Assembly (NCBI RefSeq): GCF_003334815.1
Contig: NZ_QOWO01000061.1
DNA length: 10,623 bases
Reading direction: 5' to 3' (one strand)
From: Escherichia coli
GTDB taxonomy: Bacteria > Pseudomonadota > Gammaproteobacteria > Enterobacterales > Enterobacteriaceae
Each line of letters begins with the position of its first letter. Positions within the stretch are counted from its first letter, which is position 1. Positions 3,001 to 6,000 of this stretch are shown here, piece after piece. The position numbers are program-made.

Positions 3001-6000
3001 TATTTACTGATCCGTTCTCAAGTATTGATACAGGGTTTCGCGACTGATTCCGAATTCACGAGCAAGCTTGGTCTTTTGCTCGCCAGCCTCGACACGTTGG
3101 CGCAGTTCGGCAATACGCTCAGACGACAGGGATTTCTTCCTGCCACGGTAAGCCCCGCGTTGCTTGGCGAGCGCAATACCCTCGCGCTGACGCTCGCGGA
3201 TCAGGGCGCGCTCGAACTCGGCGAACGCGCCCATCACCGAGAGCATCAGGTTCGCCATCGGAGAGTCTTCGCCAGTAAAACTGAGGTGTTCCTTGACGAA
3301 TTCGATATGCACGCCGCGTTGTGTCAGCGTTTGCACGATCCGGCGCAAATCATCGAGATTGCGCGCCAGGCGATCCATGCTATGCACCACCACGGTGTCG
3401 CCGGTGCGGGCGAAGCTTATCAGCGCTTCCAGTTGCGGACGCTTGACATCCTTGCCGGATGCCTTGTCGCTAAAAGCGCGATCAACCTTGACGCCTTCCA
3501 GTTGCCGTTCCGGGTTCTGGTCGAAGGTGCTGACCCTGATATACCCAATGCGCTGTCCAGTCATGGAATTCCCTGCAAAATGTCAGGGAAGACTCTATGA
3601 CCTTCAACGAGATATGTCAATAAATTCAAAATTCAATCCTATCCTGACGCAATTTACACATGGCATCTGACATCAGGTTAGGGTATGCCTCAACCTGACG
3701 GCGGCGAATCACAAGCGTCCGGTTTGACGCTGGTTTCGGTCGCAGTGCTGGCCCGCGCCTGGAAGCGCTGATAGCACTCCAGCCCGCAGAAATGCTCCAC
3801 GTACTCGGCCCCTTCCGGCGTGAAGGCGGCATCGAGCGGGATTTCCTTGCAGCACACGCAGCAACTGGTGCTCGGTTCATTGGCGTTCATGGTGGTGTTC
3901 CTCCATTGGTTGACGAAGCCGACGAAGGCCGCCGCCGGCATCGGCCTGGCGAACAGGAAACCCTGCACCGTGTCGCAACCCGCCTGCCGCAACCACGCAA
4001 GGCAGTCGGGTGTTTCCACACCCTCGGCTACCACCTCCATTGTCGTTTTCAGAAGACGGCTGCACTGAACGTCAGAAGCCGACTGCACTATAGCAGCGGA
4101 GGGGTTGGATCCATCAGGCAACGACGGGCTGCTGCCGGCCATCAGCGGACGCAGGGAGGACTTTCCGCAACCGGCCGTTCGATGCGGCACCGATGGCCTT
4201 CGCGCAGGGGTAGTGAATCCGCCAGGATTGACTTGCGCTGCCCTACCTCTCACTAGTGAGGGGCGGCAGCGCATCAAGCGGTGAGCGCACTCCGGCACCG
4301 CCAACTTTCAGCACATGCGTGTAAATCATCGTCGTAGAGACGTCGGAATGGCCGAGCAGATCCTGCACGGTTCGAATGTCGTAACCGCTGCGGAGCAAGG
4401 CCGTCGCGAACGAGTGGCGGAGGGTGTGCGGTGTGGCGGGCTTCGTGATGCCTGCTTGTTCTACGGCACGTTTGAAGGCGCGCTGAAAGGTCTGGTCATA
4501 CATGTGATGGCGACGCACGACACCGCTCCGTGGATCGGTCGAATGCGTGTGCTGCGCAAAAACCCAGAACCACGGCCAGGAATGCCCGGCGCGCGGATAC
4601 TTCCGCTCAAGGGCGTCGGGAAGCGCAACGCCGCTGCGGCCCTCGGCCTGGTCCTTCAGCCACCATGCCCGTGCACGCGACAGCTGCTCGCGCAGGCTGG
4701 GTGCCAAGCTCTCGGGTAACATCAAGGCCCGATCCTTGGAGCCCTTGCCCTCCCGCACGATGATCGTGCCGTGATCGAAATCCAGATCCTTGACCCGCAG
4801 TTGCAAACCCTCACTGATCCGCATGCCCGTTCCATACAGAAGCTGGGCGAACAAACGATGCTCGCCTTCCAGAAAACCGAGGATGCGAACCACTTCATCC
4901 GGGGTCAGCACCACCGGCAAGCGCCGCGACGGCCGAGGTCTTCCGATCTCCTGAAGCCAGGGCAGATCCGTGCACAGCACCTTGCCGTAGAAGAACAGCA
5001 AGGCCGCCAATGCCTGACGATGCGTGGAGACCGAAACCTTGCGCTCGTTCGCCAGCCAGGACAGAAATGCCTCGACTTCGCTGCTGCCCAAGGTTGCCGG
5101 GTGACGCACACCGTGGAAACGGATGAAGGCACGAACCCAGTGGACATAAGCCTGTTCGGTTCGTAAGCTGTAATGCAAGTAGCGTATGCGCTCACGCAAC
5201 TGGTCCAGAACCTTGACCGAACGCAGCGGTGGTAACGGCGCAGTGGCGGTTTTCATGGCTTGTTATGACTGTTTTTTTGGGGTACAGTCTATGCCTCGGG
5301 CATCCAAGCAGCAAGCGCGTTACGCCGTGGGTCGATGTTTGATGTTATGGAGCAGCAACGATGTTACGCAGCAGGGCAGTCGCCCTAAAACAAAGTTAAA
5401 CATCATGAGGGAAGCGGTGATCGCCGAAGTATCGACTCAACTATCAGAGGTAGTTGGCGTCATCGAGCGCCATCTCGAACCGACGTTGCTGGCCGTACAT
5501 TTGTACGGCTCCGCAGTGGATGGCGGCCTGAAGCCACACAGTGATATTGATTTGCTGGTTACGGTGACCGTAAGGCTTGATGAAACAACGCGGCGAGCTT
5601 TGATCAACGACCTTTTGGAAACTTCGGCTTCCCCTGGAGAGAGCGAGATTCTCCGCGCTGTAGAAGTCACCATTGTTGTGCACGACGACATCATTCCGTG
5701 GCGTTATCCAGCTAAGCGCGAACTGCAATTTGGAGAATGGCAGCGCAATGACATTCTTGCAGGTATCTTCGAGCCAGCCACGATCGACATTGATCTGGCT
5801 ATCTTGCTGACAAAAGCAAGAGAACATAGCGTTGCCTTGGTAGGTCCAGCGGCGGAGGAACTCTTTGATCCGGTTCCTGAACAGGATCTATTTGAGGCGC
5901 TAAATGAAACCTTAACGCTATGGAACTCGCCGCCCGACTGGGCTGGCGATGAGCGAAATGTAGTGCTTACGTTGTCCCGCATTTGGTACAGCGCAGTAAC

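What the first reader, a model, noticed from the sequence alone, without database searches (positions are those of the whole stretch)
5342..5407. aadA1 has no Shine-Dalgarno; a 12-codon attI1 ORF with its own GGAG stops 5 nt upstream, and a longer in-frame upstream ORF also exists
Seen in sequence: the bases before the aadA1 ATG (5405) are CAAAGTTAAACATC with no purine-rich SD. An ORF from ATG 5361 (GGAG at 5349-5352) ends at TAA 5397-5399 inside the attI1 core. A separate in-frame ATG at 5342 would give an N-terminally extended AadA1. Established knowledge: a short attI1 ORF (ORF-11) has been reported to boost translation of cassettes lacking their own initiation region. Inference: aadA1 translation here depends on coupling to the attI1 ORF, so the true AadA1 N-terminus is set by context, not by the cassette.
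Basis: partly seen in the sequence, partly recalled or inferred. Interest (0 to 1): 0.4.

Follow-up and report, generated by a model that had tools for sequence, protein, structure and literature searches.

The report
Known attI1 mini-ORF upstream of aadA1
The short reading frame just before the streptomycin-resistance gene aadA1 is the published "ORF-11" of the class 1 integron insertion site, which helps translate captured genes that lack their own ribosome-binding site, so the finding is correct but ordinary.

Summary
Every coordinate in the finding is correct. ATG 5405 has no Shine-Dalgarno (SD) sequence. GGAG 5349-5352 lies 8 nt before ATG 5361. That ORF has 12 sense codons and stops at TAA 5397-5399, 5 nt before aadA1. 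ATG 5342 is in frame with aadA1, and that frame is open back to ATG 5186.

The region is the attI1 site of a Tn21-type class 1 integron. The small ORF is the published ORF-11. ORF-17 (5335-5388) overlaps it, and Rfam RF02912 (AAC_AAD_leader / attI site) covers 5349-5427.

This is the best predicted SD-dependent start in the region. The PDB entry 7UY4, the NCBIfam AadA1 model and CARD all use that shorter form.

Across aadA cassettes, the ATG and its 9-nt leader are conserved. The GAGG/GTG pair occurs only in the aadA1/aadA2 clade. More than half of the aadA1 cassettes in complete E. coli genomes are not next to attI1.

ORF-11 coupling probably boosts initiation at ATG 5405 here, but dependence is not shown. 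Both candidate N-termini are encoded by the cassette, not set by context. ATG 5342 is a by-product of the integrase-binding GATGTT repeats. Already known; low interest.

The parts
5141..5169 (+). Pc promoter, weak variant PcW (TGGACA-17 nt-TAAGCT), inside intI1
   Evidence: Regex match. Hexamers as in Table 1 of Jove et al. 2010, PMC2791841.
5260..5288 (+). P2 promoter in its active form (TTGTTA-17 nt-TACAGT, with the GGG insertion). It is reported to drive most cassette transcription in PcW-P2 integrons.
   Evidence: Regex match; PMC2791841. The in-frame ATGs at 5186, 5255 and 5291 lie upstream of its expected transcription start.
5334..5365 (+). Three direct GATGTT copies (5334-5339, 5341-5346, 5360-5365). 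They include the attI1 direct repeats GATGTTATGGAGCAG and GATGTTACGCAGCAG. Each copy carries one of the upstream ATGs (5335, 5342, 5361).
   Evidence: the repeat finder families D2 and D3. Four of the 8 GATGTT copies in the window lie in 5334-5404. Their role as IntI1-binding repeats is established knowledge (DR1/DR2 named in PMC7093585).
5335..5388 (+). ORF-17: 17 codons plus TAA, starting 26 nt upstream of ORF-11 in another frame
   Evidence: Matches the description in review PMC8876359.
5342..5344 (+). Upstream ATG in frame with aadA1. It would add 21 residues (MLWSSNDVTQQGSRPKTKLNI). Probably not a real start.
   Evidence: Weak SD (-3.3 kcal/mol) and a low score in the crude initiation model. 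Expected by chance in 26% of shuffles. The upstream-frame peptide matches no family.
5349..5352 (+). GGAG Shine-Dalgarno of ORF-11, 8 nt before its ATG
   Evidence: -5.6 kcal/mol; review PMC8876359.
5361..5399 (+). ORF-11 of attI1: 12 sense codons (MLRSRAVALKQS) plus TAA. The stop is supplied by the cassette side of the core site.
   Evidence: Literature.
5349..5427 (+). Match to Rfam RF02912 AAC_AAD_leader ('putative aminoglycoside riboswitch / attI site')
   Evidence: cmscan 73.9 bits against a gathering score of 56, E = 1.5e-14.
5395..5401 (+). attI1/cassette core site GTTAAAC, with the recombination crossover between G5395 and T5396
   Evidence: Crossover position as stated in PMC9410878.
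5396..5404 (+). 9-nt aadA1 5' UTR (TTAAACATC). Six of its 9 nt are core site, so there is no room for an SD. AACATC (5399-5404) is the inverted copy of GATGTT.
   Evidence: The same UTR is listed for aadA1 in Supplementary Table S1 of PMC9410878.
5405..6196 (+). aadA1 coding sequence from the family-conserved ATG (263 aa), ANT(3'')-Ia
   Evidence: NCBIfam NF033126 scores 597.6 bits against a cut-off of 587. AMRFinder and PGAP both start here. The ATG is conserved in all aadA cassettes surveyed.
5407..5419 (+). Cassette-borne SD-like GAGG (5407-5410) and in-frame GTG (5417-5419). An alternative start giving a 259-aa protein.
   Evidence: Duplex -6.1 kcal/mol with a 6-nt spacer. Highest score in the crude initiation model. 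CARD-RGI starts here. The PDB 7UY4 chain begins at V5, and NF033126 covers residues 6-263.
6198..6256 (+). aadA1 attC, from inverse core GTCTAAC to core GTTAGAT; the cassette ends at G6250. It is 59 nt here because of a 1-nt deletion relative to R100.

Best explanation
This is the attI1 leader of a Tn21-type class 1 integron with aadA1 as its first cassette.

Transcripts come mainly from P2. They carry the attI1-encoded ORF-11, which has its own GGAG SD and an ATG at 5361, and the overlapping ORF-17. aadA1 starts at the family-conserved ATG 5405. This start has no SD because the cassette boundary is only 9 nt upstream and 6 of those nt are the recombination core site.

Proposed mechanism: ribosomes recruited by the ORF-11 SD translate 12 codons. 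In doing so they melt the predicted 5360-5365/5399-5404 helix. They terminate at TAA 5397-5399 and a fraction re-initiate at AUG 5405, 5 nt downstream (termination-reinitiation coupling).

This boosts AadA1 synthesis in the first position but is not obligatory. The same cassette is translated from later array positions, and a second cassette-borne start (GAGG plus GUG 5417) may also be used.

Shown here: the anatomy, the family conservation, the database match and the predicted energies. Taken from published work on other cassettes: ORF-11 is translated and enhances downstream TIR-deficient genes. Inferred: that this applies to aadA1.
For: - All defining features of ORF-11 are present at the published spacings.
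- Rfam RF02912 matches 5349-5427.
- ATG 5405 has no SD (-0.4 kcal/mol).
- ATG plus a 9-nt UTR of the form TTARACATC is seen in the aadA cassette alleles surveyed down to 71% protein identity, with variant short leaders in more distant ones. It is also listed for the aadA cassettes in Table S1 of PMC9410878.
- A 57%-identical non-cassette homologue (L025) has a normal SD in front of the homologous ATG.
- Distant alleles have GTA, GTC or GCA at codon 5 and no internal SD, so they must start at the ATG.
- attI1 plus the aadA1 UTR fused to the gfp ATG was among constructs that all gave at least 10 times background.
- ORF-11 SD or ATG mutations reduce expression of aac(6')-Ib7, and first-position aadB benefits from ORF-11.
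- An SD-equipped uORF this close to the start occurs in only 1.9% of shuffles.
Against: - No experiment on aadA1 itself was found.
- The crude initiation model ranks GTG 5417 (0.51) above ATG 5361 (0.15) and ATG 5405 (0.06).
- At least 54% of E. coli records carrying aadA1 have it away from attI1, so ORF-11 is not required for the cassette's success.
- The ORF-11 SD is predicted to be paired (p about 0.85), although the leader as a whole folds no better than shuffles (z = 0.23).
- The ATGs and the helix are explained by the integrase-binding GATGTT repeats without invoking translation.
Confidence: 0.55

Rival explanations
1. AadA1 is made mainly from the cassette's own signal. The 30S subunit binds GAGG (5407-5410) and initiates at GUG 5417, giving a 259-aa protein whatever lies upstream. 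ORF-11 is then irrelevant, or at most delivers ribosomes to this SD.
For: - Strongest SD duplex next to an in-frame start (-6.1 kcal/mol, 6-nt spacer) and the best crude model score.
- Invariant in the aadA1/aadA2 clade in every context seen.
- Explains expression from later array positions.
- The 259-aa form is what CARD calls. PDB 7UY4 starts at V5, and NCBIfam NF033126 covers residues 6-263. It is seen on at least 1000 contigs in public protein sets.
Against: - GUG is a weaker start codon, and it is predicted to be paired (p about 0.83).
- Val5 is a conserved internal valine in the family, encoded by GTA or GTC in other alleles that also lack the GAGG. The pair may therefore be a coincidence of the Arg2-Glu3 codons.
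- PGAP, AMRFinder and UniProt S3AD_ECOLX use the ATG.
Confidence: 0.3
2. AUG 5405 is used directly without any SD and without coupling. The A-rich, unpaired stretch 5387-5398 acts as a standby or ribosomal-protein-S1 landing site.
For: - Positions 5387-5394 and AUG 5405 are predicted to be unpaired (p = 0.93-1.0).
- aadA cassettes behind other attC sites mostly have no SD (-2.5 to +1.5 kcal/mol) yet are widespread.
Against: - The A-rich stretch belongs to attI1, not to the cassette, so it cannot explain later positions.
- The crude model gives a low rate (0.06).
- This route cannot be separated from coupling with the present data.
Confidence: 0.2
3. An N-terminally extended AadA1 is made from ATG 5342 (284 aa) or from further upstream (301, 313 or 336 aa). 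The N-terminus would then be context-specific.
For: - The frame is open from 5186.
- The 284-, 301-, 313- and 336-aa versions are all deposited in public databases.
- A recoded 336-aa version behind the bla promoter and RBS occurs in vector-derived contigs, which suggests that extensions are tolerated.
Against: - Weak or absent SD and low model scores.
- ATGs 5186, 5255 and 5291 lie upstream of the P2 start.
- An open in-frame ATG is expected in 26% of shuffles.
- The extension has no family match and is absent wherever the cassette is not first.
- ATG 5342 is part of a GATGTT repeat.
Confidence: 0.05
4. The leader is an aminoglycoside-sensing riboswitch that unmasks the start region when drug binds.
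For: The Rfam family RF02912 was built on this claim and matches here. The claim is extended to aad genes in PMC7588185.
Against: - The conserved part is simply attI1.
- A systematic test of 64 cassette leaders in the native integron context found no induction (PMC9410878).
- The leader fold is no better than shuffles (z = 0.23).
- The aad study concerns aadB-type leaders, not aadA1.
Confidence: 0.02

Closest known systems
ORF-11 of attI1 (Hanau-Bercot et al. 2002, Mol Microbiol 44:119; as summarised in PMC8876359 and PMC2761259)
   Same: Same sequence element. GGAG, an 8-nt spacer, an ATG in the second attI1 direct repeat, an ORF crossing the crossover point, and a stop at positions 3-5 of GTTRRRY supplied by the first cassette. 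It sits upstream of a gene without its own initiation region.
   Different: - It was tested with aac(6')-Ib7, and later aadB, not with aadA1.
- The stop here is TAA rather than the usual TAG, because the aadA1 core site is GTTAAAC.
- The ORF has 12 sense codons although the name says 11.
- aadA1 also carries an internal GAGG/GTG.
ORF-17 and ORF-18 of attI1 (Papagiannitsis et al. 2017; Casin et al., as summarised in PMC8876359)
   Same: ORF-17 is present here unchanged (5335-5388), overlapping ORF-11 in another frame.
   Different: ORF-18 arises only when the cassette supplies no stop in the core site (blaOXA-1). That does not apply here.
Rfam RF02912 AAC_AAD_leader (aminoglycoside riboswitch claim of Jia et al. 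2013; rebutted by PMC9410878)
   Same: The window matches the model end to end (73.9 bits).
   Different: The 3' third of the model, which is cassette-derived, fits poorly (non-canonical pairs are flagged). Regulatory function is not supported by later work.
Termination-reinitiation translational coupling in bacterial operons (general mechanism; my own knowledge)
   Same: A stop codon within a few nt of the next start, and a downstream start with no SD.
   Different: The upstream cistron here is a 12-codon ORF whose peptide sequence is reported not to matter. It is embedded in a recombination site, and its stop codon changes with the captured cassette.

Membership tests
attI1 ORF-11 translational enhancer | Lies in the attI1 site of a class 1 integron, next to intI1 and downstream of Pc/P2 | tested here: met
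   intI1 at 4243-5256 (-). PcW and P2 found. attI1 repeats and core site found.
attI1 ORF-11 translational enhancer | GGAG SD 8 nt upstream of the ATG | tested here: met
   GGAG 5349-5352 and ATG 5361. Criterion taken.
attI1 ORF-11 translational enhancer | The ORF spans the crossover, with its stop at positions 3-5 of the GTTRRRY core supplied by the first cassette | tested here: met
   TAA 5397-5399 within GTTAAAC 5395-5401.
attI1 ORF-11 translational enhancer | The downstream cassette gene lacks its own initiation region and starts 2-62 nt after the ORF | tested here: inconclusive
   ATG 5405 is 5 nt downstream and has no SD. However, the cassette carries GAGG plus GTG 5417 inside the annotated gene.
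attI1 ORF-11 translational enhancer | Mutating the ORF-11 SD or ATG lowers expression of the downstream gene | not testable with these tools
   Shown for aac(6')-Ib7 in the literature. No data for aadA1 were found.
Rfam RF02912 AAC_AAD_leader | Covariance-model score at or above the gathering threshold | tested here: met
   73.9 bits against 56, over model positions 1-75.
Rfam RF02912 AAC_AAD_leader | Ligand-dependent control of translation (riboswitch function) | not testable with these tools
   Published tests in the native context were negative (PMC9410878).
aadA1 gene cassette, ANT(3'')-Ia | The protein passes the curated AadA1 model | tested here: met
   NF033126 scores 597.6 bits against a cut-off of 587. 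AMRFinder reports 100% identity in identical records.
aadA1 gene cassette, ANT(3'')-Ia | Cassette bounded by core sites and ending in its attC | tested here: met
   GTTAAAC at 5395 and GTTAGAT at 6250. The attC is 1 nt shorter than in R100.
Tn21-type class 1 integron (In2-like) | intI1, attI1, cassette and qacEdelta1-sul1 3' segment next to Tn21-family tnpA/tnpR, with IS1326 | tested here: met
   100% identical to NZ_LT985321.1 over 5100-6300, with matching gene order in that record. One nt different from R100, NC_002134.

The most novel reading that the evidence does not exclude
In the first array position AadA1 is made as two isoforms. A 263-aa form arises by ORF-11 termination-reinitiation at AUG 5405. 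A 259-aa form arises by SD-dependent initiation at GUG 5417. Their ratio, and the total output, would shift with cassette position because only the first route needs attI1.
Probability: 0.25. Interest if true: 0.3.

Novelty: already known. Interest (0 to 1): 0.1.

Why it matters
The finding has practical rather than conceptual weight.

- **Annotation.** The start of one of the most common resistance genes is annotated in at least six ways in public databases (259, 263, 284, 301, 313 and 336 aa).
- **Synthetic vectors.** Some recode the spurious 336-aa frame.
- **Expression.** The level of aadA1 expression may depend on array position.

None of this changes the understanding of integrons. ORF-11 coupling has been in the literature since 2002, and the element has its own Rfam entry.

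Tried and rejected
- **Primary papers not held.** Papagiannitsis 2017 and, under the PubMed id I recalled for it, Fling 1985 on Tn7 aadA were not held. I did not request Hanau-Bercot 2002 and relied on reviews and citing papers for it.
- **Literature searches.** Searches for N-terminal sequencing of AadA, for aadA1 with translational coupling, and for the initiation codon found nothing relevant. led only to an unrelated plant-marker paper.
- **The 'aad riboswitch' paper.** It concerns aadB-type leaders with a UUG start, not aadA1.
- **Consensus promoter scan.** It found nothing because PcW and P2 fall below its thresholds. I located them with the published hexamers instead.
- **Leader RNA folding.** It is no more stable than shuffles (z = 0.23), so I make no structural-RNA claim. 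The 5360-5365/5399-5404 helix is a prediction that follows from the inverted GATGTT copies.
- **Metagenome scans.** I searched for aadA1/aadA2-type cassettes with a non-start valine codon at position 5 or with ATG changed to ATH. Both returned zero hits. No denominator could be obtained, and the wild-type pattern also gave zero in viral contigs. Pattern syntax was verified on the held loci. These nulls are therefore uninformative.
- **Rejected reading.** I do not accept that ATG 5342 defines a real extended protein; the reasons are given under the rival explanations.
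Full report
**Context.** The window is a Tn21-family transposon carrying a class 1 integron.
- Gene order: tnpA 35-3001 (-), tnpR 3004-3564 (-), intI1 4243-5256 (-), attI1, aadA1 5405-6196 (+), qacEdelta1, sul1, a GNAT-family gene, and IS1326 istB/istA.
- Region 5100-6300 is 100% identical to E. coli plasmid NZ_LT985321.1. It differs by one base from R100 and from many other plasmids. At least 5000 plasmid records match.
- The cassette promoters are PcW (5141-5169) plus the active 17-nt-spacer P2 (5260-5288). 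In this combination P2 is reported to drive most transcription (PMC2791841).

**Check of the observation.** Every coordinate is right.
- CAAAGTTAAACATC precedes ATG 5405. It pairs with the 16S 3' end at only -0.4 kcal/mol.
- GGAG 5349-5352 lies 8 nt before ATG 5361.
- That ORF has 12 sense codons (MLRSRAVALKQS) and stops at TAA 5397-5399, leaving 5 nt before ATG 5405.
- ATG 5342 is in frame with aadA1 with no stop between. The frame is open back to ATG 5186, giving 336 aa.
- In 5000 dinucleotide shuffles of the leader, an SD-equipped ATG uORF ending within 15 nt of the start occurs in 1.9%. An open in-frame upstream ATG occurs in 26%.

**What the element is.**
- It matches the literature description of ORF-11 of attI1 point by point: a GGAG SD, an octamer spacer, an ORF spanning the crossover, a stop at positions 3-5 of the GTTRRRY core supplied by the first cassette, and a gene start 2-62 nt downstream (PMC8876359; PMC4670013; PMC2761259).
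- ORF-17 is also present. It starts 26 nt upstream of ORF-11, has 17 codons in another frame, and stops within ORF-11 (5335-5388).
- Rfam has a curated family for this stretch. RF02912 AAC_AAD_leader ('putative aminoglycoside riboswitch / attI site') matches 5349-5427 at 73.9 bits.
- The three upstream ATGs (5335, 5342, 5361) each sit in a copy of GATGTT. Two of those copies are the attI1 direct repeats GATGTTATGGAGCAG and GATGTTACGCAGCAG.
- A fourth, inverted copy (AACATC, 5399-5404) directly precedes the aadA1 ATG. Four of the 8 GATGTT copies in the window lie in this 71-nt stretch.
- The ATGs are therefore explained at the DNA level by the recombination-site repeats. Their use in translation is a secondary exploitation.
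- The inverted copies predict an RNA helix 5360-5365/5399-5404 (p about 0.79) that joins the ORF-11 AUG to the bases just before the aadA1 AUG. The leader as a whole folds no better than shuffles (z = 0.23).

- The cassette begins at T5396, so the aadA1 5' UTR is 9 nt. Six of those nt are core site, which is why no SD can be present.
- Immediately inside the gene lies GAGG (5407-5410), 6 nt before an in-frame GTG (5417). The duplex is -6.1 kcal/mol, stronger than the ORF-11 SD at -5.6.
- I ran a crude initiation model combining hybridisation, spacing, start codon and unfolding cost. It ranks GTG 5417 (0.51) above ATG 5361 (0.15), ATG 5405 (0.06) and ATG 5342 (0.04). These are rough relative numbers only.
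- Curated resources disagree about the start:
  - AMRFinder and PGAP use ATG 5405, and the 263-aa protein is the one named S3AD_ECOLX in UniRef.
  - CARD-RGI calls GTG 5417.
  - The PDB chain 7UY4 begins at Val5.
  - The NCBIfam AadA1 model spans residues 6-263.
  - Public protein sets also hold exact 284-, 301-, 313- and 336-aa versions.

**Comparative evidence.**
- 44 loci encoding AadA relatives were fetched from one-genome-per-species assemblies. Among the aadA cassette alleles down to 71% protein identity, the ATG and the 9-nt leader TTARACATC are conserved. More distant relatives keep an ATG with a variant short leader, and two have no ATG at the aligned position. GAGG...GTG occurs only in the aadA1/aadA2 clade.
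- In the more distant alleles shown, codon 5 is GTA, GTC or GCA in six of eight and GTG in two. None of them has an internal SD.
- The same UTRs are tabulated for the aadA cassettes in PMC9410878 Table S1.
- A 57%-identical homologue outside a cassette context (L025) has an SD-like sequence (-5.9 kcal/mol) before the homologous ATG.
- The ATG is therefore the ancestral, cassette-encoded start. Val5 is an ordinary internal residue in most of the family.
- When aadA1 follows another cassette, the upstream attC end usually offers no SD (-3.8 to +1.5 kcal/mol). One locus has AGGAG (-6.9).
- In complete E. coli genomes the aadA1 5' end occurs in 825 records, but the attI1-aadA1 junction in at most 380. 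More than half of these cassettes therefore have no ORF-11 next to them.

**Mechanism.**
- Best-supported reading (confidence about 0.55): ribosomes load at the ORF-11 SD, translate 12 codons, terminate at UAA 5397-5399, and partly re-initiate at AUG 5405. This raises AadA1 output in this first-position context.
- The ORF-11 effect was shown experimentally for aac(6')-Ib7 and inferred for aadB.
- A construct with attI1, the aadA1 UTR and the gfp ATG belonged to a series in which every member gave at least 10 times background.
- That it applies to aadA1 is inference; no direct test was found.
- Non-exclusive rivals: SD-dependent initiation at GUG 5417 (about 0.3) and SD-independent entry on the unpaired A-rich stretch 5387-5398 (about 0.2).
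- An extended protein from ATG 5342 is unlikely (about 0.05). It has a weak SD, its ATG is part of a repeat, it is expected by chance, its peptide matches no family, and the extension is impossible in other array positions.
- The riboswitch reading of this leader has been contradicted by a systematic study (PMC9410878).

**Verdict on the interpretation.**
- 'Translation depends on coupling' is too strong. A boost is likely; dependence is not shown.
- 'The N-terminus is set by context, not by the cassette' is not supported. Both credible starts lie inside the cassette.
- The open question of ATG versus GTG is real, but it is an annotation-level issue. N-terminal proteomics or initiation-site profiling would settle it.

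**Novelty.** Already known. The element, its proposed mechanism and the competing riboswitch claim are all in the literature and in Rfam.

**Minor discrepancy.** The ORF has 12 sense codons although it is called ORF-11.

**Dead ends.**
- Two metagenome scans for natural variants lacking the GTG or the ATG returned nothing, and no denominator was available.
- Papagiannitsis 2017 and, under the PubMed id I recalled, Fling 1985 were not held; Hanau-Bercot 2002 was not requested.

Noticed in passing
window 6222-6223 (aadA1 attC): The attC lacks one C relative to R100 and most other records (GACGCCGCTTCG becomes GACGCGCTTCG), making it 59 nt and the cassette 855 nt. It is identical to E. coli ECOR 3 plasmid NZ_LT985321.1. 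This could be a natural variant or a sequencing error, and the effect on the attC stem was not examined.
   Followed up: partly
L047 806-1644; L048 from 913; L049 from 892 (RefSeq E. coli records): PGAP annotates this common aadA1 allele as a 'frameshifted' pseudogene running about 45 nt past the TAA. The 263-aa ORF is nevertheless intact and scores above the AadA1 model cut-off. This is probably caused by a longer reference protein.
   Followed up: no
L016 983-1200 and onward; also L019, L024, L030, L034: Small contigs in unrelated genome assemblies (Fructilactobacillus, Marinobacterium, Terracidiphilus and others) carry a codon-optimised copy of the upstream-extended aadA1 frame. In L016 it is the full 336-aa frame, the equivalent of window 5186-6196, behind the bla promoter and RBS. 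This is synthetic vector contamination, and it shows the spurious extended ORF has been recoded as a marker.
   Followed up: partly
L004 and L007, upstream of position 1201: Further vector-like contexts. In L004 the bla promoter and RBS are fused directly to the aadA1 ATG. In L007 an AT-rich, intron-like sequence precedes an aadA1 copy whose codon 5 is TTG instead of GTG.
   Followed up: no
window 5260-5288: The integron has the rarer PcW plus active P2 promoter configuration (GGG insertion giving a 17-nt spacer), as reported for about 9% of class 1 integrons.
   Followed up: yes
protein cluster 2: The 90%-identity cluster holding the 284-aa extended AadA1 also lists many proteins named EstX (alpha/beta hydrolase, 302-348 aa). 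This grouping is odd and may reflect the shared attI1-derived N-terminal extension or fused gene calls.
   Followed up: no
window 5361-5399: The element named ORF-11 ('11 amino acids') in the literature has 12 sense codons here, including the initiator.
   Followed up: partly
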